A stretch of 64,000 bases of DNA, from the IMG/VR virus record IMGVR_UViG_3300025572_000008, positions 16,606 to 80,605 of that record; one strand, given 5' to 3'. Shown here one piece after another: positions 4,676 to 30,361 of the stretch. Each line of letters opens with the position of its first letter. Within the stretch, counting starts at the first letter, position 1. The stretch comes from a virus. A model generated the notes under the pieces. The model worked only from the letters and a program-made list of their open reading frames with translations, was not told the DNA's origin and did no database searches. The translations under genes and the position numbers were made by a program.

Positions 4676-4683
4676 TTAAAATA
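4676..4683 (+). promoter_or_regulatory. putative late promoter motif TTAAAATA
   Basis: 25 nt before the portal ATG. Confidence 0.55.
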
Positions 4684-4708
4684 CGGGTATATTAAAAGCG
4701 CATCCCTA

Positions 4709-6553
4709 ATGTCTTCATCAAACGTTTATTACAATCCGCCACTCATTCCAGGAATGACGGCGGGGACGAATCCGCTCGCTGGCAATTATGCGGCGACGCC
4801 GAATCCTTTCTTCACCGTGGCGAACCAGTTTCTGCCGCGGAATCTGCACGACGTCATACGATGGGCTCGGTTCATCACCTTGCAGTCGCCGGTCACGACC
4901 GAGGTCATTCGGAAGTTGTCCACTTATCCGATCACTGACTTCATCGTTGATACGACGGACAAGGCGGTAAAGGAGCGTTACGAGGAGATTTTCAAGTACA
5001 CTCGCTTGAAATCAGCCCTGCATGACATCGGCTTCGAATACTATACGATCGGCAACGTCTTCCTATCAATCTACTTCCCGATTCAGAGGATGCTTCGCTG
5101 CCCCTCTTGCAGTCAGGAGTACAACGCCAAGACGGCAACGTTTACGACGTTCCGGAACTACGAGTTCCATGGCGTCTGCCCGGCCTGCGGATTCAAGGGT
5201 AATTTCATTCGGAAGGACTCAAAGTCCTTCGACATCAGGGATCTAAACCTGGTGCGATGGGACCCCGTACACATTGCGGTAAACCACAATCCGATCACCA
5301 ATGAGTACGAGTACTACTACAAGATCCCGAACGAAGTGCGTCGCCGAGTCAAGATGGGCGATAAGCTTTTCGTCAACTCGGTGCCCTGGGGCTTCATCGA
5401 AGCCGTCAAAAACAACCAGGACTTCAAGTTTGACAGAGACAACATCTATCATCTGCGCAACATCTCAGCGGGTCCGCTGATCGAAGGAGTTGCTATCCCG
5501 CCGCTGATTTCATTGTTTGGCCTGGTTTTCTATCAACAGACCTTGCGCCGAGGGAATGAAGCCATCGCTCAGGACTATATGACTCCGTTGCGTGTGGTTT
5601 TCCCTCAGGCTCAGACGGGTAACTCCGATCCTGTGATCTCAATCTCCATGCGGAATTTCCAGGCCCGCATGAAGCAGGCTTTCATCGATCACAAACGAGA
5701 TCCAAACCACGTCCTTATCGCTCCCGTTCCGGTTGGCTACCAGGCAATCAGCGGGGAGGGGAAGGCTCTGCTCGTGGCACAGGAAATCGCTCAGGCCGAC
5801 GAGTCGATCCTCCTTAGCCTAGGCGTATCGAGGGAGTTACTGTCCGGTCAGACCAATTGGACGAGCTCAACAATCGGCTTGCGTCTTCTGAAGAACACGC
5901 TCGAGGTCTACGTCGACCAGATCGAGAGCTTCCTTGAGTGGTTCATCTCCCGGGTTTCGAAATACCTGAACCTGAAAACCTGCGATGTAACCCTGGCTCC
6001 GTTCAAGTTGACGGACGACGAGAACCTGCGGCAGATGCTTTTTGCTCTTGCTCAGAATGGAAATTGCTCGCTCTCGACGCTCTACGAGTCCTTCGGCATG
6101 GACTATCAAGAAGACCTGAAAAAGCAGCGTGAAGACGCGGTGGCCACAGCCACCAACCAGGTCGAAACCAAGTTCGAGGTCGAGAGGGCACAATTCCTTG
6201 CGGCCAAGGAAGTCGGCGAGAAATTCGACAAGTCCTCGGGAGATTACCGTGCTGCTCTGGAACAGGCTCAGTACGCCGCCTCACAGCTTGCTGGCGCCGA
6301 TGGTCAGACGCAACGGATGGTGCTCAACCAGCTCAAGATCGAGGATTACGCCAAATATCTCATGGTTGCCAAGCTGCTCGACGAGGAGAACGAGAGGCGG
6401 CAAGAGGAGCTTGCCATGGCTCAGAATCTTGCCGTCGGTCAACCAGGAGAAAACGGGGAAGAAGGGGAGAAAGAGGCTCAGCCGAAAAAGGCGGTTTCGG
6501 ATCGTCCGGAAGGAGGATACCCGCCGGGTCCCGAAGAGCAGCCAGACGCATAA
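4709..6553 (+). CDS. probable portal protein with Zn-ribbon insertion
   Basis: 614 aa; helical N-terminal wing (VIRKLSTYPITDF), EYYTIGNVF segment, clip region and SLGVSRELLSG typical of portals; CPSC...CPAC insertion; acidic disordered tail. Confidence 0.65.
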   Translation: MSSSNVYYNPPLIPGMTAGTNPLAGNYAATPNPFFTVANQFLPRNLHDVIRWARFITLQSPVTTEVIRKLSTYPITDFIVDTTDKAVKERYEEIFKYTRLKSALHDIGFEYYTIGNVFLSIYFPIQRMLRCPSCSQEYNAKTATFTTFRNYEFHGVCPACGFKGNFIRKDSKSFDIRDLNLVRWDPVHIAVNHNPITNEYEYYYKIPNEVRRRVKMGDKLFVNSVPWGFIEAVKNNQDFKFDRDNIYHLRNISAGPLIEGVAIPPLISLFGLVFYQQTLRRGNEAIAQDYMTPLRVVFPQAQTGNSDPVISISMRNFQARMKQAFIDHKRDPNHVLIAPVPVGYQAISGEGKALLVAQEIAQADESILLSLGVSRELLSGQTNWTSSTIGLRLLKNTLEVYVDQIESFLEWFISRVSKYLNLKTCDVTLAPFKLTDDENLRQMLFALAQNGNCSLSTLYESFGMDYQEDLKKQREDAVATATNQVETKFEVERAQFLAAKEVGEKFDKSSGDYRAALEQAQYAASQLAGADGQTQRMVLNQLKIEDYAKYLMVAKLLDEENERRQEELAMAQNLAVGQPGENGEEGEKEAQPKKAVSDRPEGGYPPGPEEQPDA

Positions 6554-6568
6554 TCGAAAGGAGAAAGC

Positions 6569-6880
6569 ATGGCAACCAACAATTTAAACCCGTTCGCCGG
6601 CAACCCTGTACCCGGCGTTTCCAAGATAAGTGCGGTTGAGATTCCTGGGTTCGGACCCTCTCAACCGACTGAGCTCGACCTAAGCCAGTACAAAGTGCGC
6701 TATTCGAAGATCGACCTGGACGATCCGGGCTCCATCGCGGAGCTGGAGATTCTCGAAACCAGGGCGATTCGTAACGAGGGTATTCACATCCTGAACAAGG
6801 ACAAATTCGTCTTCATGGATAAGTACTTCCTCATCGTTTCTTACCTCGAACAAGACCGGAATGCCAATACCAGCCGATAA
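6569..6880 (+). CDS. hypothetical protein
   Basis: 103 aa, AAGGAG SD, sits between portal and RNAP. Confidence 0.75.
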   Translation: MATNNLNPFAGNPVPGVSKISAVEIPGFGPSQPTELDLSQYKVRYSKIDLDDPGSIAELEILETRAIRNEGIHILNKDKFVFMDKYFLIVSYLEQDRNANTSR

Positions 6881-9800
6881 AGCCGACCACCTCCAACGTA
6901 TCTTTTCGTCTCCTAGGGAGCTCAGCCGAAAGGTCGACGCGGCGCTGATCGCAGGTATCCAATCGCAGTTCCCCATTGAAGGTAAGTACTTTACGCTCGT
7001 CGCAGAAAACGTCCGCGCCGAGCCGAAAACGTTCACCCATGAAGACGAGAAGGAAGCCATCCTTAAGTCCAAGTCTCTGACCTATCCAATCAAGGGAGAC
7101 CTTAAGCTCATCGATAAGGCGACCGGAAAGGTCGTGGCTGAGCAGAAGGATTTCTCCTTAATGGATGCCTTCCATCTCACCAACAAGCACACGCTGCTTT
7201 ACAAAGGAAATAACTACTCGGTTGCCAACCAACTCCAGCTTCGGCCTGGAGTCTACACTCGAGCCCGAGAGACGGGAGAGCTCGAAAGCCACGTCAACAC
7301 GGCTACGGGGCGCAGCTTCTCTCTGACTCTCGATCCTCAGACGGGATTGTTCTACGTCCAGATCCAATCCTCCTCGATTCCTCTGGCGCCGCTTCTGACT
7401 AGGGTATTCGGTGTTGGCCCGAAGGAAGTGAGCACGTACATCCCTGTCGAAGTTTGGGATGCGAACTTGAAGGCGAGTGCCGGGAAGGAGACCAAATACC
7501 TTTCTGATCTCTACAACCGACTGGTTTCAACCTCCAAGCGACGCCCAGGGGCCAGCCCTGAAGAGATGGCCTCTCAGCTTAAGGAGGCTCTGGAGAGCTC
7601 CCAACTGTCTCCGCAAACGACGCAAGTGACGTTGGGAAAGGCCTTGGGCAGCGTGACGTCGGAAACCATTCTACGAGCGATGAAGAACCTGGTCGACGTC
7701 CACGCCGGCCGACGTCCTGAGGACAACCGGGACTCCCTGCAGTTCAAGCGTGTCCAGAATCTGCCTGACTTCCTGGCTCGACGCTTCGAAAAGGAGCACC
7801 AATCGGTGACGAACGTTGCTCGGAAGATCAAGTACGAGCTCGATCGCATGGATCGAAACGATCCGAAGATCCGAGGGGCGATTGCTGCCAAGCCGTTCAA
7901 CAAGATCATGTCCAGCTACCTACTGGACAGCAATCTTGTGGCTACGCCTTCCGAGACCAATCCCGTTGAAAGCCTGGAGAATGTGGCCAAGGTGACCGTT
8001 CTGGGAGGTGGCGAAGGTGGCATCGAATCCTCTAGAGGTGTCCCCATGTCGGCCCGTGACATTGATCCCTCTCATCTAGGGATCATTGATCCGAGCCGGA
8101 CTCCGGAATCCGGACATGCTGGTATCGATCAGCGCTTCACCGTTTCTGCTCGCCGGGACGCCGACGGCAATCTCTACGCTCGTGTCCGAGACAACAGTGG
8201 CAAAACTCACTTCCTCTCGGTCCACGAGATGATGACGCACACGATCGGCTTCCCGCACCAAGAGGGGAAGAGGAAGGTTCAAGCACAGGTCAATGGGGAG
8301 CTGAAAGAGGTTGATCGCAGCAAGGTCGACTACTGGCTGGCTGACAGCACGGACATGTACACGATCACAACCAACCTCGTGCCGTTCCTCAATTCCAATC
8401 ACCCGGGACGCCTCACCATGGCAGGCAAGGCCATTCCTCAGGCCCTGTCTCTCGTTGATCGGGAAGCCCCTCTTGTTCAAACAACGAACGACGAAGGCGT
8501 TCCTTTCGTCAAGCTGCTCGGAAAAATCACGTCGACAATCTCCCCGGTGGACGGGGAAGTCACGGCTGTCACTTCGAAGCACATTGAGATCAAGAGCAAC
8601 GACGGTAAGACCCACAAGGTTCCTCTCGTCAAGAACTTGCCCTTTAACATGAAGGGCTTCCTGGACGATGAGACGCCTCTGGTCAAGCCTGGTGACAAGG
8701 TTAAGTATGGCGATGTCCTGGTCGACAACAACTACACGAAGAATGGTGAGCTGGCCATCGGCAAGAACTTGACTGTCGCCTATCTGCCGTACAAAGGCTA
8801 CAACCACGAGGACGGTTTGGTGATTAGCCGGTCGGCGGCCGAGAGCCTCGCTAGCCATCATGCTTACAAAATCGACTACGACGTGCAGGACACGTCCGTC
8901 ATGCGTAAGCAGCTGATCAACCGTTACTTTCCAGGAAGATACACCAAGGAGCAACTGGACAAGCTGGACGACAAGGGATTCGCAAAGGTTGGCGCGGTGC
9001 TGAACCACGGGGATCCCGTCTATGTTGTCCTGGAAAAGCGTGAGCCGACACCAGAAGACAAGATGCTTGGTCGGCTTCATAAGACGCTCGTTGCTCCGTA
9101 TCGTCCGGTTTCGGAAATCTGGACCCATGAAGAGCAAGGAGTCGTTGTCGACGCTCACACTGAAGGGAAGGCTATCCGGATCCTGGTACGATCGAAGAAG
9201 CCGCTTGAGATCGGAGACAAGCTTACCGGCCTGCACGGTAACAAAGGGATTGTGTCTCTGATCTTGGAAGATCACGAAATGCCTTACAACAAGGAGACCG
9301 GAAAGCCAGTGGATCTGTTGCTGAACCCGGCTTCGGTGACGTCCCGAATCAATCTTGGGCAGCTCATGGAGACGGCTGCGGCGAAGATCGCCCAGAAGAC
9401 AGGCAAGCCTTATCTCGTCCACAACTACTCTAAGAGCAGTAACATCGCCGATCTCAAGAAAGAACTCACGGCGCATGGACTGGACGATTCGGAGGTTCTG
9501 GTTGACCCCAAGACCGGCAAGGAGCTCGGCAAGGTTCTGACGGGCCCGCAATACATCGCCAAGCTGTACAAAACCACGGATCAGAACTGGTCGGCTCGCA
9601 ACGTCGGAAGTTACGACAATGCTATGCAGCCGACGAAAGGCGGGGAAGAAGGTTCCAAGGCCGTCGGCTACATGGAGATGCTGGGTCTGTTAGGCTCGGA
9701 TGCCCGCAAGAACCTCAAGGAAATCGCCACGATCAAATCCGAGAAGAATGAGGAGTTCTGGTCTCGTTTCCTGAACGGGCAGCCTCTTCCGAAGCCGAAG

Positions 9801-10283
9801 ATGACCTTCGCTACTCAGAAGTTCTTCGACTACCTGACCGGAGCCGGGATTAAGACGTCCTTCAAGGACGGCAAAATCACCGCGGCACCTTTGACTAGCC
9901 GTGACATTCTGGAAATGAGTCACGGGGAGATCAAGGAGCCGACCTTCATCGATGCGAAGAACCTCGAGCCGGCCAAAGGCGGCCTGTACGACCCGTCCCT
10001 GACCGGAGGTCTGCGGGGCACCCGTTGGACTCACTATACTTTGGCGGAACCCATTCCTAATCCGACTTTCGAGAAGCCAATCAAGAGCCTGCTTGGCCTG
10101 ACTACGAGCGAGTTTAACGGCGTGGTCTCTGGGGCGATAGGCATTCGTCGTGCTGACAAGGGTATCTTCCACCTGCATGACTCGGAAACAGGGAAACACC
10201 TGAAAACGATCAACCTCAAGACTTCGATGCCGGTAGAGGAAAGGGAAGAAGAGGAGAAGGAGCACGACGATGACACTCTATAA
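6861..10283 (+). CDS. rpoB: RNA polymerase beta subunit fused to the beta' N-terminal segment
   Basis: Beta motifs QLQLRPGVY, ARDIDPSHLGIIDPSRTPES, YLPYKGYNHEDGLVIS, GDKLTGLHGNKGIVS, LNPASVTSRINLGQLME, GYMEM..L; followed by beta' N-terminal motifs SHGEIKEPTFI...GGLYDP...HYTLAEP. Confidence 0.95.
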   Translation: MPIPADKADHLQRIFSSPRELSRKVDAALIAGIQSQFPIEGKYFTLVAENVRAEPKTFTHEDEKEAILKSKSLTYPIKGDLKLIDKATGKVVAEQKDFSLMDAFHLTNKHTLLYKGNNYSVANQLQLRPGVYTRARETGELESHVNTATGRSFSLTLDPQTGLFYVQIQSSSIPLAPLLTRVFGVGPKEVSTYIPVEVWDANLKASAGKETKYLSDLYNRLVSTSKRRPGASPEEMASQLKEALESSQLSPQTTQVTLGKALGSVTSETILRAMKNLVDVHAGRRPEDNRDSLQFKRVQNLPDFLARRFEKEHQSVTNVARKIKYELDRMDRNDPKIRGAIAAKPFNKIMSSYLLDSNLVATPSETNPVESLENVAKVTVLGGGEGGIESSRGVPMSARDIDPSHLGIIDPSRTPESGHAGIDQRFTVSARRDADGNLYARVRDNSGKTHFLSVHEMMTHTIGFPHQEGKRKVQAQVNGELKEVDRSKVDYWLADSTDMYTITTNLVPFLNSNHPGRLTMAGKAIPQALSLVDREAPLVQTTNDEGVPFVKLLGKITSTISPVDGEVTAVTSKHIEIKSNDGKTHKVPLVKNLPFNMKGFLDDETPLVKPGDKVKYGDVLVDNNYTKNGELAIGKNLTVAYLPYKGYNHEDGLVISRSAAESLASHHAYKIDYDVQDTSVMRKQLINRYFPGRYTKEQLDKLDDKGFAKVGAVLNHGDPVYVVLEKREPTPEDKMLGRLHKTLVAPYRPVSEIWTHEEQGVVVDAHTEGKAIRILVRSKKPLEIGDKLTGLHGNKGIVSLILEDHEMPYNKETGKPVDLLLNPASVTSRINLGQLMETAAAKIAQKTGKPYLVHNYSKSSNIADLKKELTAHGLDDSEVLVDPKTGKELGKVLTGPQYIAKLYKTTDQNWSARNVGSYDNAMQPTKGGEEGSKAVGYMEMLGLLGSDARKNLKEIATIKSEKNEEFWSRFLNGQPLPKPKMTFATQKFFDYLTGAGIKTSFKDGKITAAPLTSRDILEMSHGEIKEPTFIDAKNLEPAKGGLYDPSLTGGLRGTRWTHYTLAEPIPNPTFEKPIKSLLGLTTSEFNGVVSGAIGIRRADKGIFHLHDSETGKHLKTINLKTSMPVEEREEEEKEHDDDTL

Positions 10284-10479
10284 TCCCAATCGCTTCGTCA
10301 CCGGTCTGACAGATATTCACTATGTGAAGCAGGTGAATCGAAAGACGACTTACCGGGACCCTAACACCGTCCCGGTTTCGTCCGATTCGACGAAGCCTAT
10401 CGTTGTTCGTGAACGTCCGGCGATCGACACGAAGTTCATCCCCGATCCGTTCAAGCCGGAAGACGCTTCGGAACTATAA
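10270..10479 (+). CDS. small hypothetical protein within the RNAP operon
   Basis: 69 aa, AAGGAG SD, fills the gap between two RNAP genes. Confidence 0.5.
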   Translation: MTLYNPNRFVTGLTDIHYVKQVNRKTTYRDPNTVPVSSDSTKPIVVRERPAIDTKFIPDPFKPEDASEL

Positions 10480-10486
10480 TATCGAC

Positions 10487-11662
10487 ATGGCAACTCCTTC
10501 TATTCCTCACGCCGACATCGAAGAACTGACCGTCGGAGGCCAGGCTTTTGAGCAGATGCTGGCTGATGTCGATGTGTCGGCCCAGATCCGAGATCTAAAA
10601 AAGCAAATCCTTGAGACGAAATCTCCGTCAAAACGAGATCAGCTGGTCAAGAAGCTGAAGTACCTGGCAGGCATTCAGAAGTTAGATCTGAAGCCTCACG
10701 AGGCGTACATCCTACATCACATCCCTGTGGCACCGCCCTTGGTTCGACCATCCATACCCATGGGCAATAATCGGATCGAATACGCCGACGTCAATTACCT
10801 CTACAAAGACCACATGCTGGTCAACAACTCGCTAAAGGATATTAAGGACGTCCTGCTGCCTCACCAGACAGTGGCTGAGCGGAAGGCCTTGTACGATGGA
10901 GCCAAGGCTGTATTCGGTCTCGGAGAGGCTATCACGGGAGCCAACCGCGGGAAGGCTAAGAAAGGATATATCAAGCAGATCGCCGGAGACACTGGACCTA
11001 AGGGAGGCTACTTCCATTCCAAGCTGTTGTCGAGGAAGCAAGACTTTTCCGGCCGGGCAACGATCTATGCCGAGCCGAATCTAGGCTTTAACGAGGCGGC
11101 TGTGCCAAAGGATATGCTCTGGACGATGTACGAGTTTCACATCATCCGGGACTTGGTTCGCAACGGCTATGACTACGTCTCAGCGAAGAAGGCTGTGCAG
11201 GCCCGCGACACCGCAGCGACGAATAGCTTTAACAAGCTCATCAAGCAGATCCCGGTGATCCTGAACCGAGCCCCGACTCTGATGCGCACCAACATCACGG
11301 CGCACTATCCTGTGCCTGTCGAAGGCAAAACGATAGGTGTTAACCCGTTGCATCTGCCTCTGTACGCAGGAGACTTCGACGGAGACGCCTTGACAATCCA
11401 TCTTCCTATGACGCCAGAGGCCATCGAGGAAGCTAAGCAAAAGCTTCTTCCTCAAGCTCATATCTACGACTACCGGAAAGGGCAGGGTGCCGCGATGGTG
11501 GCTCCGGGCCACGAGGCGATCATCGGTTCGACCTACCTTACGGAACCTGACCATACTCAGGACGTAGTGGAATTCGAAACTGAAGAGGATGCTCTAAAGG
11601 CCCTGAAGGAAGGGAAGATCAAGGAGAACACGCCGATTCGAATCAAGGCTCACCTGACATAA
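10487..11662 (+). CDS. rpoC: RNA polymerase beta' middle fragment (catalytic DFDGD)
   Basis: IPVAPPLVRP, RKQDFSGRATI, VILNRAPTL, catalytic YAGDFDGD; start moved to MATPSIP. Confidence 0.95.
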   Translation: MATPSIPHADIEELTVGGQAFEQMLADVDVSAQIRDLKKQILETKSPSKRDQLVKKLKYLAGIQKLDLKPHEAYILHHIPVAPPLVRPSIPMGNNRIEYADVNYLYKDHMLVNNSLKDIKDVLLPHQTVAERKALYDGAKAVFGLGEAITGANRGKAKKGYIKQIAGDTGPKGGYFHSKLLSRKQDFSGRATIYAEPNLGFNEAAVPKDMLWTMYEFHIIRDLVRNGYDYVSAKKAVQARDTAATNSFNKLIKQIPVILNRAPTLMRTNITAHYPVPVEGKTIGVNPLHLPLYAGDFDGDALTIHLPMTPEAIEEAKQKLLPQAHIYDYRKGQGAAMVAPGHEAIIGSTYLTEPDHTQDVVEFETEEDALKALKEGKIKENTPIRIKAHLT

Positions 11663-11718: not shown

Positions 11719-12270
11719 TCAGTCGTTTTCGAACAGCTTTTTAAGTTCCGTGTACAGCTGCCTTGCTGCCATGAGCGGAAGCTGTACCGTGCCCGACGAG
11801 GTCTTCAATGTCAAGGAGGCAATCGGAGAACCGTCGGACGAACCGATTAGATTGCTCCGATCGGCCTTGGACGCCACTCCGGCTTCCTGGGTCTTCGCTC
11901 TTACCGATATCTTTCCTCGTCGAGTCGAAGTGGCTTTTGCCATACGAATCTCCTTCAGTCCGTTGCGACGTGTTCCGTAACTCGGCTCATACGGTTTATC
12001 CGGGACAGCCTCGAACCTAAGGAGCGGCCGTCGCCTCTTGTTGAGCTCCTGAGTCTCTATCGTCCTAAGATGCCCGTTTGCAACCAGAGATTTCAAGGAC
12101 GCATAGACGACGGGTGCAGTGAGATGGGATAGGGCCTCGGTGAGCTCCCTCTCGTTCTGTTCCGGGTGATTCACGACATAGCTGTAGACTTCCTGCGTCT
12201 TGTTGATGAATGGCACAGGCCGTGACGATTCCCCTCTAGACGCCGGGCTAGTTGCAGTCGCTCCGTTCAT
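11719..12270 (-). CDS. putative winged-helix DNA-binding protein
   Basis: 183 aa; VYSYVVNHPEQNERELTEALSHLTAPVVYASLKSLVANGHL has a wHTH-like pattern; basic C-terminal half. Confidence 0.5.
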   Translation of the reverse strand: MNGATATSPASRGESSRPVPFINKTQEVYSYVVNHPEQNERELTEALSHLTAPVVYASLKSLVANGHLRTIETQELNKRRRPLLRFEAVPDKPYEPSYGTRRNGLKEIRMAKATSTRRGKISVRAKTQEAGVASKADRSNLIGSSDGSPIASLTLKTSSGTVQLPLMAARQLYTELKKLFEND

Positions 12271-12331
12271 TTCCAGTAACCCCCTTGGTTGTTTCTACGG
12301 GACTTGAGCTGATTTGAACTTACTACGCTTC

Positions 12332-13222
12332 TTACTCGACGAAATCCAATTCTCCATCTGCATCCCCGTTGTAAACTGGATGCCTTAGACGACCTCCCGC
12401 TCCGCTCGGCCCCAAGGATTTGACCTGTATAAGCTTTCCGATCCAGGCCTTAGGATTGGCCCAGGCCTCCTTGCGCTGAGCCTTCGTGAACCCACTGCCT
12501 ACCGCGGCTACTTCCCTACCTGACCGATCGGTCACTATAACGGCACCCATAGAATCCTTTGGCTTTCCGTTTTTGTCGAACTCCTGAACTATCCGCGAAA
12601 CTCGCAAATTGTAGGTGCCGAAGTGTTTCAGCTTGATCCTACGGTTGCTCGGCTCAGGAGTCGATAGGGAAGTTATTATTACACCCTCTTCCCCGCGTCG
12701 TCGCGTTGAATTTATCAGTTCGACGATGTCGGGTTTTGTGATTTTGGGCTCCGGAACAAACATCATGTCCGGCTTTCCGAAGGCCTGCTCAACCTCTTTC
12801 AGATGAAGCAGTTTCTCTCGATAGGTAGGTAGAGGAGGGTTAATGACGTCGATAAGGACGGCACGGACGGGCCCAGTTTCCTTCTGGGTAGCAATGGCCC
12901 TCTCTGGCAAAGAGTTCAAAATTCCCGACAACCTGGAGTGTGACTCCACGTCATTCTTAGAGTGCCCAGTGTGGATAAGCTCCACGGAGTAGACGTTCCC
13001 GGCCAAGTGAGGCAGCTTCGTTTCAGTCAAATGAGGTAGCTGAGCCGTGCGTTCAGGAAAATGACCCTTAACGGATTGTCGTCGAGAAAAGTAGCGCAAG
13101 GAACCGTCCGGCTCAACTGTTACAAAAAAATGTGCACCATCCCACTTTTTTGTCGCAACGGGGTCGGATATCGTGGTCCAATCGAGTTGATTCGAATCTT
13201 TGTACTGTGCCCTTGTAAACAT
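12332..13222 (-). CDS. ATP-dependent DNA ligase (minimal NTase + OB domains)
   Basis: Motif I KKWDG, motif IV EGVII, motif V IKLK, OB domain VGSGFT...W.G.LIQVK and LRHPVY. Confidence 0.9.
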   Translation of the reverse strand: MFTRAQYKDSNQLDWTTISDPVATKKWDGAHFFVTVEPDGSLRYFSRRQSVKGHFPERTAQLPHLTETKLPHLAGNVYSVELIHTGHSKNDVESHSRLSGILNSLPERAIATQKETGPVRAVLIDVINPPLPTYREKLLHLKEVEQAFGKPDMMFVPEPKITKPDIVELINSTRRRGEEGVIITSLSTPEPSNRRIKLKHFGTYNLRVSRIVQEFDKNGKPKDSMGAVIVTDRSGREVAAVGSGFTKAQRKEAWANPKAWIGKLIQVKSLGPSGAGGRLRHPVYNGDADGELDFVE

Positions 13223-13260: not shown

Positions 13261-15165
13261 TTATGCTGCGTGTTTTTTCATCAATTTCCTTACCTGATTG
13301 AACAATTCGTCTTTGTCATCACTATGCTCAGTCAGATATTTATCGATACTGTAAGGAGTCTTCGAAAAACGAGATGGCGGTAGCACTGACTGATAGTGCT
13401 CCACATGAACGTGACGCTCCTTCTCCGGGAGATGTTCATGAGATCCGAATCGGGCCCCGCGTCCTATCACCTGTTTGATCTTGGCCTTGTTGAAGTGCGG
13501 CTCGAGCGTTTGGATGAGCTTCGTTCCCTTGAGATCTAGCCCTTCGGCACCCGAGGACGAAACAAGGAGGACCGGCACCTTTCCGCTGTTGTAGTCAGCG
13601 ACGATCTGGTCCTTCTCCTTGCGAGTCAGGCCGCCGGAATACACGCGATGAGGGATCCCTTCCTTCTCGAGGCGTTTGGCGTACTCGTGGACGCCAGAGT
13701 CGAGGTAATTCGAGTACACCAGGCCTCGGAAATTCTTGTCAGAGCTCAGACGTTCCTTCAACCGTGCTACAGCTTTTTCGATCTTCGGCGTATGCGGAAC
13801 TTCGTCGGGGTTGCTAGATAAATGTCTCATTGAGTTTGAGACCTGACGTACTCCGGTTGAAAAAGCGTTAAGAGAAGCCCTCTCTTTCTTATCCAAAGGG
13901 AGATTGTGCCGGACTTTCATACGAAGCAGCCAGGGCAGGTCTCCTTCGACGTAGCGGTAAAGCCGGTGCTGTTCCGGGCTCATCGGAACCTCGACGACCT
14001 CTTCCGTTTGCTTAGGAAACTTGCCTGCCATCTTCGGATCGTCCTTAGCGTCGTAGTAGGAGACGTACTTGCCGAAGATCTTGCCGAGTTCCTTCTCCTG
14101 ATTTAAGACCTTGGCCTCGTCAGGCTTCTTTCCAAGGACTCTCTGCATCAGCGTGGGTTTCTTTCTGATCGTCTTGATGTAGCGATTCTCCATCTCCGCT
14201 GGATCTTCGGGGAGCACGGCCTTGCCGGCCGCCATGTTGACGAGCGGTGATATATCAGAGAGGCGGTTGTAGTTTCCCGTTGCCGTGGCGAGGATTCGCT
14301 TGTCAGAAGAGGAGATAATGTCCCTGAGTTTCCGGGTTCGCTTAGCGTCGATGTTCCTTAGCTTGTGTGCCTCATCGGCCACAGCGAGGGCATACTTACG
14401 CTTAGCCAGCTCGTCGGCCATATTCGTGGCCTTTTCGTAGCTGAGGACGGTAAGGCGATTTCGATCGATATTCAGTTTGTGCTTCTCGATCTCTTTGTCG
14501 ACGTTTGTCTGCAGGCTAGCAGGGGCGACGATGAGAACGTGGCCTTGGGGATTTTCCTTCTGAGCCCGCTCGGCTGCGGTGAGAAACGTCTTGGTCTTGC
14601 CAGACCCGGTGGAATGGTGAAGGACGATGCCCTTCGACTTCTCTAGCTTGGAAAGGGCCTCCTCTTGATGCTTACCGAGAGCCTCGGCTATCTTGACGAG
14701 GTAGCGGTTGCAAGGACATGAAGCAGGCAGCTTCAGGTTGGCTGCTTTCTCGATATATTTGTTCCCGGTCTTCCCGAGGTTCCGAAACAACCACGCCTTG
14801 TCTCCCCATTCGCTGCCCTTCAGCTTCTTTAGTAGAAACTTCTGGCCATCCTTGGTGTGAATGGTCAACTGATCCGAAGTACTGTTTTCTCCAATCCGGG
14901 CCTTACGGACCCAGTCCAAGGTCGTGACTCCGGCTCCATAGGAGCCTTTGGGAATGACAACCTTCTTGCTCAAGGCGTAGTGGCGATCGTGAACCGGCTG
15001 CTCGAAAAGGATGATCGATCGACCAGGCTCAGGCAGCTCCTTCTTCGTGGCCCAGGAGTAAGCCTTATCTCCGGCTACGAGCCGGTAATCCCAGTGCAGT
15101 CCCATTCTGTCCGCTTCGTGACGCTGACGAGTGAACAGAATTTCTTGATCTGGTTGGAGAGGCAT
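13261..15165 (-). CDS. LigD-type 3'-phosphoesterase domain fused to SNF2 helicase
   Basis: N-terminus QRHEADRMGLHWDYRL..SWATKK..HDRHY..IPKGSYGAG (PE domain); helicase motifs HSTGSGKT, VADEAH, ATATG, SSSGAEGLDLKG, QVIGRGAR. Confidence 0.9.
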   Translation of the reverse strand: MPLQPDQEILFTRQRHEADRMGLHWDYRLVAGDKAYSWATKKELPEPGRSIILFEQPVHDRHYALSKKVVIPKGSYGAGVTTLDWVRKARIGENSTSDQLTIHTKDGQKFLLKKLKGSEWGDKAWLFRNLGKTGNKYIEKAANLKLPASCPCNRYLVKIAEALGKHQEEALSKLEKSKGIVLHHSTGSGKTKTFLTAAERAQKENPQGHVLIVAPASLQTNVDKEIEKHKLNIDRNRLTVLSYEKATNMADELAKRKYALAVADEAHKLRNIDAKRTRKLRDIISSSDKRILATATGNYNRLSDISPLVNMAAGKAVLPEDPAEMENRYIKTIRKKPTLMQRVLGKKPDEAKVLNQEKELGKIFGKYVSYYDAKDDPKMAGKFPKQTEEVVEVPMSPEQHRLYRYVEGDLPWLLRMKVRHNLPLDKKERASLNAFSTGVRQVSNSMRHLSSNPDEVPHTPKIEKAVARLKERLSSDKNFRGLVYSNYLDSGVHEYAKRLEKEGIPHRVYSGGLTRKEKDQIVADYNSGKVPVLLVSSSGAEGLDLKGTKLIQTLEPHFNKAKIKQVIGRGARFGSHEHLPEKERHVHVEHYQSVLPPSRFSKTPYSIDKYLTEHSDDKDELFNQVRKLMKKHAA

Positions 15166-15183
15166 GTGACTTGAGGAGGCTAA

Positions 15184-15213
15184 AAAATAACTCTGCGTGA
15201 ACAGAGTTATTTT
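15184..15213 (-). terminator. intrinsic terminator of the upstream minus-strand gene
   Basis: 12-bp stem AAAATAACTCTG/CAGAGTTATTTT with a U-run on the minus strand. Confidence 0.7.
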
Positions 15214-15215
15214 AA
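15208..15215 (-). promoter_or_regulatory. putative late promoter motif TTAAAATA (only minus-strand copy noticed)
   Basis: 42 nt upstream of the PE-SNF2 ATG, embedded in the terminator stem. Confidence 0.45.
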
Positions 15216-15230
15216 GGCAGAGCCTAGTTT

Positions 15231-16409
15231 TTAGCCGAAAGTAACAGCGTCAGCCGGCGGCTCAAGCTTTACGATCTTACGAGTCCTTCGTCGCGTAACG
15301 ACGAGCTCGGGGATTTTGGGAACTTCAGAAGTCTCAGGGCTCTGCTTAATTTCTGGTTTCTTATAGTTTGCGTGGAACCGCTGAATCGAGTCCCGGATCG
15401 TATCAGGCGTGCTGCTCTTAACGAAGAACTCGAACTCCCCGTGGCTCGGAAAAGTCGCTTTGTAAGCCTCGGTGAAGAGGTCGAGATCCTCTCCAGATTC
15501 GATCCCGGTTGCCGCCATCACTGTCTCACTGTTGAATTTGGAGCGGACAAGTTTATTCGAATAATAAGCCTCGGCAACGGCCTTGCAGGAGTCGATAAGG
15601 GAGCTCGTCTCGATGAAGGTCTTAACATGTAGAAGTTGGTGCGGTTCCGGAGCGACAGGCCAAGGCTGAGGGTCCCCCTGTGCCCGACGTCGGAGACCTT
15701 CTTCGGCAACATATTTAACGAATCCTGCGAACGATGGGTCGTTCAATCGAGAGGCATCACCTACATATTCGAAGTTTTCGTTGATGTCGTATGCCGAAAG
15801 AGTGAAAAGATAATTCCTAAGGATTGACGCATAAACGTCTTCCCGTTGTTCGAAACCGTAGTGGAAACTTCCTCCTGCACTGTAATAATAATCCAGCTTC
15901 AGGAAGGGCATAATGGCGCCAAATTTATTGGAGTAAAAGACGTATCCAATATTTTCATCACCATCTTTTAAAACATAGAACAGACCGCTTTGGGTAAGTT
16001 TCAAGTTGTAAGGTTGTGCGAGATATTGGATCAATCCTCCCGCTCCATCGTAACCTAAGAGAGTAGCGTTTAGCGCAACCGTACCGTAAGGGACTTGAAT
16101 AAAATTGACCTGATGGCCTTTGAACTCGAAAGAACTCACATTACCATTCCGGGCCCAAGCTTTAGATTTAAGGGTTTCGGCAAGTGCAGGCTCGAAATCC
16201 TTAGTACCAAACGAGGTACTCAGCACGCCTTGATCAATGACAATATCCAAGCTCGCATATCCATCCTTTGAGAATTTCAGAGCTCTAGTTGGCAACGCAG
16301 AATCTCGCAGTTCAAGCGCACGAAATACCTCGTCTTTGAGACTTTCCCGTTTGCTATGAGTCATCAGCCGCGTGATTCTACATTTTTCTCGAAGCGCATT
16401 ATCGCTCAT
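15231..16409 (-). CDS. hypothetical protein, possibly a degenerate pol-beta-like nucleotidyltransferase
   Basis: 392 aa; YASLDIVID and NGNVSSFEFKGHQVNFI recall phage minimal NTases, but the acidic triad is incomplete. Confidence 0.4.
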   Translation of the reverse strand: MSDNALREKCRITRLMTHSKRESLKDEVFRALELRDSALPTRALKFSKDGYASLDIVIDQGVLSTSFGTKDFEPALAETLKSKAWARNGNVSSFEFKGHQVNFIQVPYGTVALNATLLGYDGAGGLIQYLAQPYNLKLTQSGLFYVLKDGDENIGYVFYSNKFGAIMPFLKLDYYYSAGGSFHYGFEQREDVYASILRNYLFTLSAYDINENFEYVGDASRLNDPSFAGFVKYVAEEGLRRRAQGDPQPWPVAPEPHQLLHVKTFIETSSLIDSCKAVAEAYYSNKLVRSKFNSETVMAATGIESGEDLDLFTEAYKATFPSHGEFEFFVKSSTPDTIRDSIQRFHANYKKPEIKQSPETSEVPKIPELVVTRRRTRKIVKLEPPADAVTFG

Positions 16410-17595: not shown

Positions 17596-17667
17596 TATTA
17601 GCTCCTTCAAAGCAAGAATGAAAACGACCGCTCTATAATGATTAGAGCGGCAGTTCTTTGTACAATA

Positions 17668-17675
17668 CTTATACC
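17668..17675 (-). promoter_or_regulatory. putative early promoter motif GGTATAAG
   Basis: CTTATACC upstream of the minus-strand block starting at 17595; back-to-back with a late motif. Confidence 0.65.
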
Positions 17676-17687
17676 ACTACTCTGTTC

Positions 17688-25833: not shown

Positions 25834-27136
25834 CAAATACCTTGAGAAGGTAGCTGATCTGCGACAGTACGGCCGAATGGCCCGAGAAGCGGTCAATGCC
25901 GGTCGGCGGAATCCTATGACCACGGCCTTTGGAGCAGGCGGGGCATTGGACGGTGCGCTGAGCACAACTCGTCAGGGAGACGAGGGAAATTTTCGTCTCG
26001 GCTTGAGAGGAGTAAGGAACACCATAGTCGGTGCTGCCAAAGGTGCGGCGGCCGGCAAGGCGCTCGAGCTCAGCTATCAGCATCTCAAACGCAAGGCCTT
26101 GGCGGACGCAAATCCGTTTCTCGATAAAGCGGCAAGCTTGGCCGGTGTTGGAAAGCATCTGGCCAAGACGTGGAAGGAGACTCCGTTTTCCGCAAAGGCC
26201 TCTCTCGGAATCAGCGCGACGGGCCTAGGCGTCAGCGCGGCCAATTACAAAACCAATAAGGACAACCGAGATCGTGCCGCGCTGCAAGCAGAGCTGGACC
26301 GAAAGGCCCTTGCTGCGCTTCGAGGCATCCATCGAGAACTGAAGGCTCAAGGCCAGGAGAAACGGGCTGAGGATGAGAAGGCCTATTATGGCGAGGCGGC
26401 GGGGGCGGCCGGCGTCTACTCCGGTCTCAAGATCACGAAGAATCAGTTCGATCGCGGCCATCTGACCGGCCGTGAAACACTCTACCACGGCTCGACCGCG
26501 GAGAACATCGCCAACATCAAGAGGCAGGGCTTGAAGCCCAACCGTTCCGATAAGGGTGTCTCCGGAGTCGTTGGTCTCGGCGAGAAGAACAAGAATCTGG
26601 TGTTCGCGGAGAAGCGGAAGTTTCACGCCCAGAACTACGCCGCGCAGCAGGAAGCCATCTCTGCCGGGAAGGTCAAGAACCAGGCCGACCTGATCCGGGA
26701 GCAGAGGAAGGCGCTCGGAAAGGCGATGAAGCGCCATCTGACCGGTCAGAACAAGTACGTCGCAAAAATCAATTTGCCGACCTGGCGTCAGGAATATCGA
26801 GGCGTGACGAACCCCGAGGTCAAGACGATGTTCCGGAAGATGGAGGGCAACCTCTTCTACAAAATCCAGCCTAAGAGCGTGCAGAAGGCGCAGAAGAATA
26901 TGATCTACAAGAACTTCCAGACGAACGTTCACGTCCAGCGGGGCGAGCACGGGATCGGCACGGAGTACATCAAAGGATCGAAGAACTACCGACGCAACTC
27001 GGCCCGGGAGATCGGTGAGTACATCGCTCACAACAAGGGCCGGTTTGCGAAAGGGCTCGGTAGGGCGGTAGGCGGCCTGGGTATGGCCGCAGCCGGAGCA
27101 GCCCTGTTCAATCACTCACGCAAGAATAATGCTTAA
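25826..27136 (+). CDS. NKYLEKVA-tagged polyprotein with ADP-ribosyltransferase-like domain
   Basis: Starts MSNKYLEKVA; Gly-zipper segments; TLYHGSTAENIANIKRQGLKP...LVF pattern of HGT-type ART folds. Confidence 0.55.
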   Translation: MSNKYLEKVADLRQYGRMAREAVNAGRRNPMTTAFGAGGALDGALSTTRQGDEGNFRLGLRGVRNTIVGAAKGAAAGKALELSYQHLKRKALADANPFLDKAASLAGVGKHLAKTWKETPFSAKASLGISATGLGVSAANYKTNKDNRDRAALQAELDRKALAALRGIHRELKAQGQEKRAEDEKAYYGEAAGAAGVYSGLKITKNQFDRGHLTGRETLYHGSTAENIANIKRQGLKPNRSDKGVSGVVGLGEKNKNLVFAEKRKFHAQNYAAQQEAISAGKVKNQADLIREQRKALGKAMKRHLTGQNKYVAKINLPTWRQEYRGVTNPEVKTMFRKMEGNLFYKIQPKSVQKAQKNMIYKNFQTNVHVQRGEHGIGTEYIKGSKNYRRNSAREIGEYIAHNKGRFAKGLGRAVGGLGMAAAGAALFNHSRKNNA

Positions 27137-28628
27137 GCTTATCAAGTCGGATCCCTACTTCGCCGAGAACGAACCTGCTATCCGGATCATCGATGGTACC
27201 GACCGCTCCGGCCTCATCAAGGCCGCGGCGGACAGCAAGATCGTCGAATACATCTCTCGCATTCACCCGGAGCCCAACAAGGTCTACCTCCACATCCTGG
27301 CGATGGGGGCAGGGGAGTATTTCGGCGCCAATCGGAACCAGGACTATTTCCCAGAGAACACGCTCCTGGATTACTACAAGACGTTCGAAACGTCGCCGGC
27401 GCACGTCTTCCGCAATCACATCAACAAGGATCCTGCCAAGGCGATCGGCCAGGTGGTCTTCGCCATCTACAACGATCGCATGCACCGGGTCGAGCTCATT
27501 GCTTGGATCGACAAAGACAAAGGCCGAGACGTCATCGAACGCATTGAGCGAGGAGACTACCCTGCTACGTCTATGGCGTGCCGCACGCCTTACGACGTTT
27601 GCAGCATATGCGGTAACCGGGCTCATTCCCGACAGGAGTACTGCGAACACCTCTCCGAAGAGCTAGGGCGCATTTATCCTGACGGACGCAAGGTCATGGC
27701 CTTGAACGTTGCCCCGCTTAAATTTTTCGATATTTCCATCGTAATTCGGCCGGCCGACGTTACCAGCTCCGTTTTGCAGAAAGTCGCTTCTGACGAAGGA
27801 CGTGTCATAGGTTCCGCCGAACTCGCTGAAGTTGAAGGTCTGACCGAAAAGACAGCTACGCTCAAAAAGCTCAGTGAGTTCATCAAAGAGGTCACGGACG
27901 GTGTGGTGATCGACGCCGATCCAAATCTCGATGCGGTGCTTGACAAGGTTTCGGACCCGGACGAGAGGGCGCTCGACATTCTTCGAAACTACGAGCTCAA
28001 ACCCGTGCTCGAATCCCTGGCTCATCTAGGAATCAGCCCTTCGATTAGCTGGCTGTCGGAGCTTATCGCTCGAAAGACGATGGGCAAGCAAGGAGAAGGG
28101 ATTGGAGACTTGGTGGCTGGCTACATCAAGGAAGTCGGAATCGAAGGGCTTCCTATGGCTGAGAAGGACTTTGGAGAACCGCAGGGGCCCAATCCTGCTA
28201 TCATCTCGGCTTTGATGCCTTCCGTGAAACAAGCGTCATTGCTCCCAGAGTATGTCACTGATCGAGCTTTCGTTCATGTGAACGGATCGACTTACATACC
28301 TGGAACCAACGTAGGTTTTGTCGGTAATGGCCCACACGTTGAGATGACTCCTTACGAGCGATTCCGCCAGCAGAATCTATTGCCTCAATCACAAACACCA
28401 GGAGGACTTCCTGGGATCGTAAAGACTCTGATGATTATCGGAGGGGCGGCGTTGGCTGCAAAATGGTACATCACACAGATGATTGAGCAGAAGATGAGGA
28501 GAAATCAGGCTTCTCACCAAGCTGGAGAGATTAAAATAGGTTTAGTCGAAAAACGCGCCGATGATTATCGATCAACGTACCGCCTCGCCGAAAGCGCAAT
28601 GGTGCGGCTGATTAAGAAGCGCTGTTAA
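27129..28628 (+). CDS. prohead maturation protease (HK97/assemblin-type, Zn ribbon)
   Basis: FRNH..KDP..AIGQV, catalytic-like TSMAC, CSICGN...CEH, FFDISIVIRPAD; located in the head cluster. Confidence 0.8.
   Translation: MLKLIKSDPYFAENEPAIRIIDGTDRSGLIKAAADSKIVEYISRIHPEPNKVYLHILAMGAGEYFGANRNQDYFPENTLLDYYKTFETSPAHVFRNHINKDPAKAIGQVVFAIYNDRMHRVELIAWIDKDKGRDVIERIERGDYPATSMACRTPYDVCSICGNRAHSRQEYCEHLSEELGRIYPDGRKVMALNVAPLKFFDISIVIRPADVTSSVLQKVASDEGRVIGSAELAEVEGLTEKTATLKKLSEFIKEVTDGVVIDADPNLDAVLDKVSDPDERALDILRNYELKPVLESLAHLGISPSISWLSELIARKTMGKQGEGIGDLVAGYIKEVGIEGLPMAEKDFGEPQGPNPAIISALMPSVKQASLLPEYVTDRAFVHVNGSTYIPGTNVGFVGNGPHVEMTPYERFRQQNLLPQSQTPGGLPGIVKTLMIIGGAALAAKWYITQMIEQKMRRNQASHQAGEIKIGLVEKRADDYRSTYRLAESAMVRLIKKRC
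28532..28539 (+). promoter_or_regulatory. putative late promoter motif TAAAATAG
   Basis: TTAAAATAGGTTTAG is identical to the 15-mer at 31666; lies in the 3' end of the protease gene. Confidence 0.6.
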
Positions 28629-29896: not shown

Positions 29897-30361
29897 ATGA
29901 GCAATAAATATCTTCTAAAGCTTGCGGCTATTATCGACGTTGATCCGGAAGGAAACGTTGTGCGAATTCACTCGGATCCGGATCTCGAACATCGAGCTAA
30001 CAAGGCCAAGCTTATCAATCCCTCTCAAAATCGGGCCAACAAATTTCTCCGCCGCGTTGTAGTGCCAGCCTCGATCGTAGGTAGTGCAGCCTACGGGGCG
30101 AAAAAGCTTTATAGCGGTCGCAGGGAAAAACGTGCGGAATTCCTGAGCCCCGAACGAAAGAAAGAGATAGCTCAAACCGGCGTTCTCGTCGGAACTGGAG
30201 TCGGGGCCTCAGCTGCGCTCGATCGCTTCGTTAAGCCACGAATGAATTTTTCCGGTCCTCTTGGGAAGGCCAAATATATCGGCCTAATAGGAGGAGCGAA
30301 CCTCGCTACAGATTACGCCGCAGTTAAAATTAACAAGGCAATTGAACATGCCCGTACCTAA
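29897..30361 (+). CDS. NKYLLKLA-tagged putative internal head protein
   Basis: Tag, internal EKRA site and two Gly-rich hydrophobic segments. Confidence 0.65.
   Translation: MSNKYLLKLAAIIDVDPEGNVVRIHSDPDLEHRANKAKLINPSQNRANKFLRRVVVPASIVGSAAYGAKKLYSGRREKRAEFLSPERKKEIAQTGVLVGTGVGASAALDRFVKPRMNFSGPLGKAKYIGLIGGANLATDYAAVKINKAIEHART

What the first reader, a model, noticed from the sequence alone, without database searches (positions are those of the whole stretch)
14686..15215. The PE-SNF2 fusion carries two internal NKYxEKxA-type tags and a late promoter, so it is probably packaged and cleaved
Seen: the linker between the PE and helicase domains reads GNKYIEKAANLKLPASCPCNRYLVKIAEAL, i.e. two copies of the tag found at the N-termini of head-cluster proteins. 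The only minus-strand TTAAAATA motif I noticed is just upstream of this gene. Inference: the enzyme is loaded into capsids, split into PE and helicase by the prohead protease, and injected with the genome for immediate repair.
Basis: partly seen in the sequence, partly recalled or inferred. Interest (0 to 1): 0.7.

Follow-up and report, generated by a model that had tools for sequence, protein, structure and literature searches.

The report
Two address tags inside phage enzyme
A DNA-end-repair enzyme and a DNA-motor enzyme of an uncultured 168-kb phage are joined head to tail, each keeping the short address peptide it carries when it is a separate gene in related phages, so the joined protein is probably packed into the virus head, but whether it is cut in two there has not been tested.

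Summary
Observation confirmed. The 634-aa ORF (13261-15165, minus strand) has NKYIEKAA (aa 135-142) and NRYLVKIA (aa 153-160) in a disordered linker between a LigD-type phosphoesterase (PE) and an SNF2 ATPase. The same 8-mer starts nine head/tail-cluster proteins and occurs nowhere else in the genome.

The two copies are not a duplication. In relatives the helicase is usually a separate gene that starts with the tag (59 of 68). Stand-alone PE proteins mostly end with it (17 of 23). So tag 1 is PE's C-terminal tag and tag 2 is the helicase's N-terminal tag. Fusion and split states changed at least 23 times.

TTAAAATA is a real box: 9 per genome, before portal, capsid, tail-fibre and all tagged genes. 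Here it is also the 5' arm of a hairpin conserved in four phages.

Packaging is plausible. The ortholog in cultured phage Arash (Gp217, untagged) is among the most abundant virion proteins, level with the virion RNA polymerase.

Cleavage by the protease and "immediate repair" are untested. The position-free tag looks more like a docking peptide, and a role with the virion polymerase is an equal alternative.

The scan has already noted this tag family and similar tags in other phages.

The parts
13261..15165 (-). PE-SNF2 fusion ORF, 634 aa, pI 9.7
   Evidence: The identical sequence is present in RNA-library contigs. The protein cluster is seen on 4 contigs.
14767..15165 (-). LigD-type 3'-phosphoesterase domain, aa 1-133
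   Evidence: Pfam LigD_N. Aligns with PDB 3P43, 3P4H and 3N9B, keeping H16, H24-x-D26-x-R28, H59 and Y63. AlphaFold pLDDT is above 90.
14740..14763 (-). Tag 1, NKYIEKAA (aa 135-142): the PE module's own C-terminal tag
   Evidence: 57 of 89 PE homologs have a strict tag a median of 8 aa after the PE domain. 17 of 23 short stand-alone PE proteins end with it. It is a conserved island in 36 fused homologs, with K140 in 35 of 36.
14710..14739 (-). Variable 10-residue spacer NLKLPASCPC between the tags
   Evidence: Not conserved even in the 76%-identical homolog P0008, which has SLRPAPTLT. pLDDT is below 50.
14686..14709 (-). Tag 2, NRYLVKIA (aa 153-160): the helicase module's own N-terminal tag
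   Evidence: 59 of 68 stand-alone orthologs carry a strict tag, 50 of them within the first 8 residues. The distance from tag to Walker A has a median of 30 aa in stand-alone and 31 aa in fused forms. L003 and L004 have separate helicase genes that start V-NRYLIKIA and M-NPYLVKIA.
13264..14685 (-). SNF2-family ATPase, aa 161-634
   Evidence: Pfam. A family profile against the PDB is best to the Sulfolobus Rad54-like enzyme 1Z63 (3e-19) and also hits vaccinia NPH-I 6RFL_Y (3.5e-11). 41% identical to Arash Gp217.
15208..15215 (-). TTAAAATA promoter-like box
   Evidence: The same box precedes the portal, gp218-like, gp223-like, capsid and tail-fibre-like genes.
15184..15213 (-). Hairpin AAAATAACTCTG / CAGAGTTATTTT followed by TTAG. 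It overlaps the box and looks like a terminator for the upstream gene.
   Evidence: RNAfold. The same layout, with covarying stems, is found in L004, L022 and L023.
12332..13222 (-). ATP-dependent DNA ligase, untagged, next gene in the same unit
   Evidence: In some relatives it is fused to PE.
27129..28628 (+). Candidate prohead protease (Arash gp222 homolog)
   Evidence: PHROG 18299 at 2e-10. Invariant H97, S148, C158, C161, C172 and H174. No Pfam or PDB support from the family profile.

Best explanation
The gene is an in-frame join of two cargo modules that are separate genes in many related phages. One is a LigD-type phosphoesterase that carries the 8-residue peptide N-K/R-Y-L-x-K-I/V-A at its C-terminal end. 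The other is an SNF2 ATPase that carries the same peptide at its N-terminus. Joining them left both peptides side by side in a flexible, exposed linker. The peptide is a portable address or docking motif that works at either end of a protein or inside it. It resembles the phage T4 capsid-targeting sequence (MKTYQEFIAE against MNKYLEKIAE of ORF 24247). The gene is transcribed from the same TTAAAATA box as the portal, capsid, tail-fibre and all other tagged genes. The 72-kDa basic protein is therefore most likely made with the structural proteins, docked into the prohead and delivered with the DNA. The SNF2 part probably works alongside the virion RNA polymerase. Shown here: the tags, their orthology to terminal tags, their conservation, the shared box, and the disordered linker in the model. 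From the literature: virion residence of the untagged Arash ortholog. Inferred: docking into the head, delivery, and any cleavage.
For: - The tag family is real and confined to head/tail-cluster genes plus this gene.
- 59 of 68 stand-alone helicase orthologs carry a strict tag, 50 of them N-terminal, and the spacing to Walker A is the same as in fused forms.
- Stand-alone PE proteins end with the tag (17 of 23), and 57 of 89 PE proteins have it a median of 8 aa after the domain.
- L003, L004 and L025 show the split state directly.
- In 36 fused homologs down to 49% identity the tag-1 columns are a conserved island in a variable linker.
- Tag codons vary at synonymous sites.
- The AlphaFold model has two confident domains and a linker (aa 134-159) with pLDDT below 50.
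- All 9 TTAAAATA boxes in the genome point at downstream genes. These include homologs of the Arash portal gp204, capsid gp226, gp218 and gp223, and a tail-fibre-like protein.
- Arash Gp217, the ortholog, gave 38 peptides and 1148 spectra. The virion polymerase beta' Gp216 gave 1210 and the portal 877 (PMC10585845).
- The T4 capsid-targeting sequence and its use are described in PMC8442874 and PMC3012670.
Against: - No virion data exist for this phage or for any phage that has the tag. The cultured relatives Arash and Vibrio phage D69 lack the tag.
- Arash Gp217 is packaged without a tag, so the tag is not needed for packaging in that lineage.
- Arash virions were purified only on a sucrose gradient, and 116 of its proteins scored as virion proteins, so contamination is possible.
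- Only 25 of 43 fused forms keep a strict tag within 70 residues before Walker A, against 59 of 68 stand-alone forms. This suggests relaxed selection on internal copies.
- Promoter timing has not been measured, and the box overlaps a terminator-like hairpin.
Confidence: 0.55

Rival explanations
1. The fusion is loaded into proheads and the prohead protease (ORF 27129) cuts at one or both tags. Free PE and free helicase are then injected to repair the incoming genome.
For: - In T4 the targeting sequence is cut off by the head protease (PMC8442874).
- The linker is disordered and accessible in the model.
- Module boundaries in PE polyproteins always carry the tag or a decayed (L/M)EKxA core.
- Fused and split states interchange at least 23 times, as expected if processing makes them equivalent.
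- A ligase gene follows, and PE-ligase fusions exist in relatives.
Against: - There is no direct evidence of cleavage.
- No conserved residue follows the 8-mer that would define a scissile bond.
- C-terminal tags on stand-alone PE proteins have nothing useful to release.
- The protease call rests on one PHROG hit and one weak S78 hit.
- The ligase in this phage is untagged.
- A repair role is not distinguished from a transcription-linked role.
Confidence: 0.25
2. The internal tags are fossils of a gene fusion with no present function. The protein is a cytoplasmic late replication and repair enzyme and is not packaged.
For: - Any fusion to a downstream tagged gene leaves a tag at the junction.
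- An in-frame Met often sits just before internal tags in relatives, as a relic of a start codon.
- Strict tags are rarer in fused forms.
- Arash shows that the helicase does not need the tag.
Against: - Tag-1 columns stay conserved (K140 in 35 of 36) while flanking linker columns vary, across homologs down to 49% identity.
- Both tags are kept in the 76% and 70% identical homologs while the spacer changes.
- The gene shares its box with structural genes.
- The ortholog is abundant in Arash virions.
Confidence: 0.12
3. The tag addresses proteins to something other than the capsid interior, for example the phage RNA polymerase or another late assembly hub. The SNF2 ATPase is then a polymerase cofactor that is packaged only through the polymerase.
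For: - The gene lies inside the RNA polymerase gene cluster in four relatives and directly after beta' in Arash.
- Arash Gp217 gives about the same spectral counts as beta'.
- The family profile hits vaccinia NPH-I, an SNF2-type ATPase solved in entries of the virion RNA polymerase complex (the role is from my own knowledge).
Against: - The other tagged proteins are small basic proteins and an ADP-ribosyltransferase-like protein, encoded among head genes. That is the T4 internal-protein pattern.
- The polymerase subunits themselves carry no tag.
Confidence: 0.08

Closest known systems
Phage T4 capsid-targeting sequence (CTS) on internal proteins IPI-III and Alt (Mullaney and Black 1996, cited in PMC8442874; PMC3012670)
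   Same: A short peptide is shared by unrelated, basic proteins encoded with head genes. The sequences resemble each other: MKTYQEFIAE against MNKYLEKIAE, 6 of 10 identical. The cargo includes an ADP-ribosyltransferase-like protein.
   Different: The T4 sequence is N-terminal and is cut off. Here the tag also sits at C-termini and inside polyproteins, and the cargo includes a 72-kDa two-enzyme fusion. Neither cleavage nor packaging has been shown.
Salmonella phage Arash Gp217 'DNA helicase' (PMC10585845)
   Same: It is the ortholog of the SNF2 part (41% identity over aa 163-629) and lies in the same neighbourhood as the RNA polymerase beta' gene. It was detected in virions at about the level of the polymerase subunits.
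   Different: It has no tag and no PE domain. Arash has neither the tag pattern nor a PE gene.
Proteolytic maturation of head and ejection proteins in giant phages SPN3US and phiKZ (PMC10052503, PMC5694885)
   Same: The head carries a virion RNA polymerase and many ejection proteins, and a prohead protease trims several of them.
   Different: The cleavage motif differs and the propeptides are long and N-terminal. [quoted passage not shown]
Bacterial LigD (PE + ligase + polymerase) and stand-alone archaeal PE (PDB 3N9B, 3P43, 3P4H)
   Same: The PE fold and catalytic residues are shared. A ligase gene is adjacent here and is fused to PE in some relatives.
   Different: There is no polymerase/primase domain, the fusion partner is an SNF2 ATPase, and the setting is a phage late-gene unit.
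Vaccinia NPH-I (PDB 6RFL chain Y)
   Same: It is an SNF2-type ATPase carried in a virus particle together with the virion RNA polymerase. The role is from my own knowledge; the sequence hit is.
   Different: The similarity is weak and limited to the C-terminal lobe (3.5e-11). The virus is eukaryotic, and no tag or PE domain is present.

Membership tests
T4-type capsid-targeting sequence system | One short peptide shared by otherwise unrelated proteins encoded with head genes | tested here: met
   Nine N-terminal tags plus two internal ones, confined to this window of the 168-kb genome.
T4-type capsid-targeting sequence system | The tag sits at the extreme N-terminus of the cargo | tested here: not met
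   In this protein both copies are internal (aa 135 and 153). The tag is N-terminal in 50 of 68 stand-alone helicase orthologs but C-terminal in 17 of 23 stand-alone PE proteins.
T4-type capsid-targeting sequence system | The tag is removed by the prohead protease | not testable with these tools
   No proteomics exist for any tag-bearing phage.
T4-type capsid-targeting sequence system | The cargo is present inside the virion | not testable with these tools
   The only evidence is the untagged Arash ortholog Gp217, found in virion mass spectrometry.
T4-type capsid-targeting sequence system | Co-expression with head genes | tested here: inconclusive
   The gene shares the TTAAAATA box with the portal, capsid and tail-fibre genes. 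Timing is not measured. RNA contigs show only a step in depth from 9.9 to 24.7 at the box.
SNF2 family ATPase | Two RecA-like lobes with SNF2-specific motifs | tested here: met
   PF00176 at 2.9e-16 and PF00271 at 9.7e-15. The family profile hits 1Z63 at 3e-19. The model is confident.
LigD 3'-phosphoesterase (PF13298) | Catalytic His, Asp, Arg, His and Tyr set on the PE fold | tested here: met
   31.5 bits against a cut-off of 31.1. The alignment to 3P43, 3P4H and 3N9B keeps H..LHxDxR, H...Y and IPxGxYGxG.
Caudovirus prohead serine protease (S78-like), for ORF 27129 | Sequence match to the family and a His/Ser catalytic pair | tested here: inconclusive
   PHROG 18299 at 2e-10. 1 of 34 homologs hits PF04586, at 9e-4. 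There is no PDB hit. H97 and S148 are invariant.
Intrinsic terminator, for the hairpin at 15184-15213 | Stable stem-loop followed by a T run, at the end of a gene | tested here: inconclusive
   A 12-13 bp stem plus TTTT lies 16 nt after the stop of ORF 15231-16409. It is conserved with covarying stems in four phages. The consensus scan did not list it, and no transcript ends are available.

The most novel reading that the evidence does not exclude
The 8-residue peptide is a position-independent capsid address that works at an N-terminus, at a C-terminus or inside a chain. Enzyme modules can therefore be joined and split freely at the tags without losing delivery. The tagged PE-SNF2 protein would then be part of an injected transcription and repair machine together with the untagged virion RNA polymerase. 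The SNF2 part would play the role NPH-I plays for the poxvirus virion polymerase, and might be the adaptor that brings the polymerase into the head.
Probability: 0.15. Interest if true: 0.8.

Novelty: new variant of a known kind. Interest (0 to 1): 0.55.

Why it matters
If the tag does address proteins to the head from any position in the chain, the packaged cargo of a large and mostly uncultured phage family can be read from sequence. That family has hundreds of PE and helicase homologs in metagenomes. The cargo would include DNA-end-healing, ligase, SNF2, ADP-ribosyltransferase, NUDIX and acetyltransferase modules. A position-free tag would also be a more flexible handle for loading foreign proteins into capsids than the N-terminal T4 sequence. 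The link to an abundant virion SNF2 ATPase in Arash gives a testable idea: phage virion RNA polymerases may travel with a remodelling ATPase, as poxvirus polymerases do. If the tag does not address proteins to the head, this is an ordinary gene fusion with relic peptides.

Tried and rejected
- Complex prediction of the ORF 27129 protease domain (aa 1-330) with the linker (aa 118-178) gave no answer, score 0.00.
- Internal translation start: there is no in-frame ATG, GTG or TTG just before either tag.
- Recent tandem duplication of the tag: the two copies use different codons.
- RNA element instead of peptide: synonymous sites vary freely.
- Assembly error creating the fusion: the identical sequence is in independent RNA-library contigs, and about 45 fused homologs exist.
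- Transcript starts: only assembled contigs were available. They break at hairpins (15190-15233 and 17648-17686), which can be an assembler artefact, so no start site can be claimed.
- Tag-bearing cultured relatives with proteomics: none found. Arash and Vibrio phage D69 have no tag, and D69 has no helicase ortholog.
- Arash homologs of the small tagged proteins: none found.
- PE homolog in Arash: none found.
- Domain X of relatives: no Pfam or Atlas match, and it is absent from this genome.
- The PA-SR01 Tat-like motif as a parallel tag family: it occurs only in that helicase.
- Profile of the protease family against PDB and Pfam: nothing usable.

Full report
WHAT IS THERE

The window is part of a 168,216-bp virus contig, 53% G+C. 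ORF 13261-15165 on the minus strand encodes 634 residues. Pfam finds LigD_N, the 3'-phosphoesterase (PE) domain, at aa 14-82, scoring 31.5 bits against a cut-off of 31.1. It also finds SNF2-rel_dom, ResIII and Helicase_C over aa 163-577.

The PE part aligns with the solved PE structures 3P43, 3P4H and 3N9B. It keeps the H..LHxDxR, H...Y and IPxGxYGxG residues. A profile of the helicase family is best to the Sulfolobus Rad54-like SNF2 enzyme 1Z63 at 3e-19.

NKYIEKAA is aa 135-142 and NRYLVKIA is aa 153-160.

IS IT MORE THAN CHANCE?

Yes. The same 8-mer, N-K/R-Y-L-x-K-I/V/L-A, follows the start codon of nine ORFs. These start at 24247, 25826, 29897, 30997, 31323, 35034, 51215, 51459 and 51774.

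Over all six frames of the whole genome, a loose pattern finds only those nine, the two copies here, and two weak hits. Codons differ between copies at synonymous sites, so the peptide is what is conserved, not an RNA element. The two copies in this gene are not a recent duplication.

WHERE THE TWO COPIES COME FROM

Related contigs settle this.

- **L004** (a 169.7-kb contig, 60% identity). The PE gene and the helicase gene are separate. The helicase starts MNPYLVKIAK. The PE protein carries NSNKYLTKIAV right after the PE domain and then an extra domain that the window phage lacks.
- **L003.** The helicase starts V-NRYLIKIAKA. A 665-aa PE polyprotein has an internal HNKYLIKIAS.
- **Helicase homologs.** Of the best 120 among 296 homologs, 68 stand-alone helicases could be analysed. 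59 have a strict tag, 50 of them within the first eight residues. Of 43 fused forms analysed (41 with the PE motif), 25 keep a strict tag within 70 residues before Walker A. The spacing from tag to Walker A is the same in both groups, median 30 and 31 residues.
- **PE homologs.** 57 of 89 have a strict tag a median of 8 residues after the domain, and none has an N-terminal tag.
- **Short stand-alone PE proteins** (125-165 aa). 17 of 23 end with the tag core NKYL.KI 2-18 residues before the stop.

So tag 1 is the PE module's C-terminal tag and tag 2 is the helicase module's N-terminal tag. The fusion simply put them next to each other.

The nearest homologs show the same layout. P0008 (76% identical) has both tags with a different spacer. 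P0009 (70% identical) has a roughly 50-residue module between them.

On a FastTree of 112 helicase cores, the fused/split state changes at least 23 times, against about 35 for shuffled labels. Tree error may inflate that count.

Most fusions carry a single tag at the junction. Recombination between two tag-coding repeats would produce exactly that in frame. This is an inference.

ARE THE INTERNAL COPIES STILL UNDER SELECTION?

In 36 fused homologs down to 49% identity, the tag-1 columns form a conserved island. N is kept in 27 of 33, Y in 24, L in 26, E in 28 of 36, K in 35 of 36 and A in 27. Neighbouring linker columns have entropies of 2.2-3.2 bits.

Where the NKY part has decayed, a core (L/M)EKxA usually remains. 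Strict tags are less frequent in fused than in stand-alone forms (58% against 87%), so some relaxation is likely.

The AlphaFold model (mean pLDDT 87.8) has two confident domains. A linker at aa 134-159 has pLDDT below 50, with a short helix over tag 1. The tags are therefore exposed and not part of either fold.

THE PROMOTER CLAIM

TTAAAATA occurs 8 times in the window against 0.63 expected, and 9 times in the genome. All copies point at a downstream gene, and eight of the nine are intergenic.

The genes downstream of the boxes are:
- the portal homolog (Arash gp204), followed by the RNA polymerase beta gene;
- the gp218 and gp223 homologs;
- the major capsid protein homolog (gp226);
- a tail-fibre-like 675-aa protein;
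- the units that contain every other tagged gene.

It is therefore a structural-gene box. "Late" is by analogy with the T4 late promoter TATAAATA, which I cite from my own knowledge.

There is one complication. At this site the box is the 5' arm of a hairpin, AAAATAACTCTG-ttcacg-CAGAGTTATTTT followed by TTAG, which begins 16 nt after the stop of the upstream ORF. The same layout, with different and compensating stems, precedes the PE gene in L004, L022 and L023. The other boxes have no such hairpin.

A reasonable reading is a terminator for the upstream gene overlapping a promoter whose own transcripts start inside the stem. That would leave the gene dependent on the box. This is inferred.

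RNA-library contigs break here, and their depth goes from 9.9 to 24.7. However, contigs also break at hairpins for technical reasons.

IS THE PROTEIN PACKAGED?

There is no direct evidence for this phage. The best outside evidence is Salmonella phage Arash.

- Its Gp217 is the ortholog of the SNF2 part, 41% identical and encoded directly after the polymerase beta' gene.
- In virion mass spectrometry it gave 38 unique peptides, 100% coverage and 1148 spectra.
- For comparison, beta' gave 1210 spectra, Gp218 gave 1149, the portal 877 and the capsid protein 1333 (PMC10585845).

Three caveats apply. The particles were only sucrose-gradient purified. 116 proteins scored as virion proteins. And Gp217 starts MPEYQLRDHQ with no tag, while Arash has neither the tag pattern nor a PE gene.

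The untagged head proteins of the window have Arash homologs, all listed there as structural. The small tagged proteins have none. This fits fast-evolving internal proteins.

The tag resembles the T4 capsid-targeting sequence MKTYQEFIAE, which loads internal proteins and is then cut off (PMC8442874, PMC3012670). ORF 24247 starts MNKYLEKIAE, 6 of 10 identical. The fusion is basic, with pI 9.7.

IS IT CLEAVED, AND WHAT IS IT FOR?

Nothing tested here shows cleavage. No residue after the 8-mer is conserved. The tag occurs at C-termini, where a cut would release nothing.

The protease call for ORF 27129 is also weak. It rests on one PHROG hit (2e-10), one of 34 homologs touching Peptidase_S78 (9e-4), and invariant H97 and S148. 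The family profile gives no PDB match.

In favour of cleavage are the T4 precedent, the exposed linker, and the free interchange of fused and split forms.

As for function, PE plus the adjacent ligase suggests healing and sealing of DNA ends, and PE-ligase fusions occur in relatives. But the unit sits inside the RNA polymerase gene cluster in all relatives examined. The Arash ortholog matches the polymerase in amount. The family profile also touches vaccinia NPH-I. A role with the injected polymerase is therefore at least as likely as "immediate repair".

COMPARISON AND NOVELTY

The closest known system is the T4 capsid-targeting sequence. The scan has already reported this tag family in this genome (e1-5359346) and similar tags in many other phages, so the general idea is not new here.

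This finding adds three things:
- the tag is used at either end of a protein and inside polyproteins;
- the two tags in this gene are explained as the terminal tags of two joined modules;
- one tagged module has an ortholog with published virion evidence.

I rate it a new variant of a known kind, of moderate interest. Packaging is likely, at about 0.55-0.6. Cleavage is open, at about 0.25-0.4.

Noticed in passing
L005:2578-3100 (Pseudanabaena phage PA-SR01 helicase, MT234670): The SNF2 ortholog has a 140-residue N-terminal extension with two copies of a twin-arginine-like motif (MNRRNFLKN and SRRQFLKN). These are the only two such motifs in that 137-kb genome, and the gene lies next to the major capsid gene.
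   Followed up: partly
L025:2932-3705: An HNH endonuclease-like gene is inserted exactly after the PE tag (PE ends NKYLEKIRYK*), with its ATG overlapping the PE stop. It is followed by a tagged 188-aa gene and the tagged helicase. The tag-coding site may be a homing or recombination spot.
   Followed up: no
L004:4430-4846 and L003:~2400-2830: A conserved ~140-residue domain (motifs PDLTPxQM, GWYQWY, RQMKRWISFKARH) follows the PE tag in many relatives and forms PE-X-tag-helicase triple fusions. It has no Pfam or Atlas match and is absent from the window genome.
   Followed up: partly
relatives P0009, P0033, P0035, P0186, P0221 and others: A ~45-residue module (consensus roughly YxHxxTGxxKWVxEGxxVPxGYxKT...YKRK) recurs between two tags or after the PE tag. 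Its function is unknown. In this phage it seems to have been deleted, leaving the 10-residue spacer.
   Followed up: no
window 15184-15215 (-), L004:3921-3960, L022 and L023 just upstream of position 3001: The promoter-like box is embedded in a hairpin whose stem covaries across four phages and which ends in TATTTT(T)TAG. It may be an overlapping terminator and promoter. No other TTAAAATA site has this.
   Followed up: partly
window 11745-12324: A compost-sample contig (run X2) joins 11745 to 12324 and skips 578 bases. A close relative therefore lacks most of the 183-aa ORF 11719-12270 downstream of the ligase.
   Followed up: no
L003:1629-3626: The 665-aa PE polyprotein contains a ParB/sulfiredoxin-like stretch (VVVDGAHRLAKA) between PE and the tag, and two adjacent tag-like copies (KLEKIAV then NKYLIKIAS).
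   Followed up: no
window 4676-11662: The portal gene and the RNA polymerase beta and beta'-N genes follow one TTAAAATA box in the same orientation. This fits the polymerase being a virion component, as in Arash.
   Followed up: partly
window 29897-30361: The tagged 154-aa protein has a second, weaker tag-like copy (ANKFLRRVV) about 45 residues in.
   Followed up: no
relatives P0192, P0219, P0233, P0236, P0241, P0244: These are PE-ligase fusions joined through the tag or its decayed (M/L)EKxA core, a LigD-like two-domain layout in phages. Other PE fusions carry GNAT (P0171) or NUDIX (P0191) domains.
   Followed up: no
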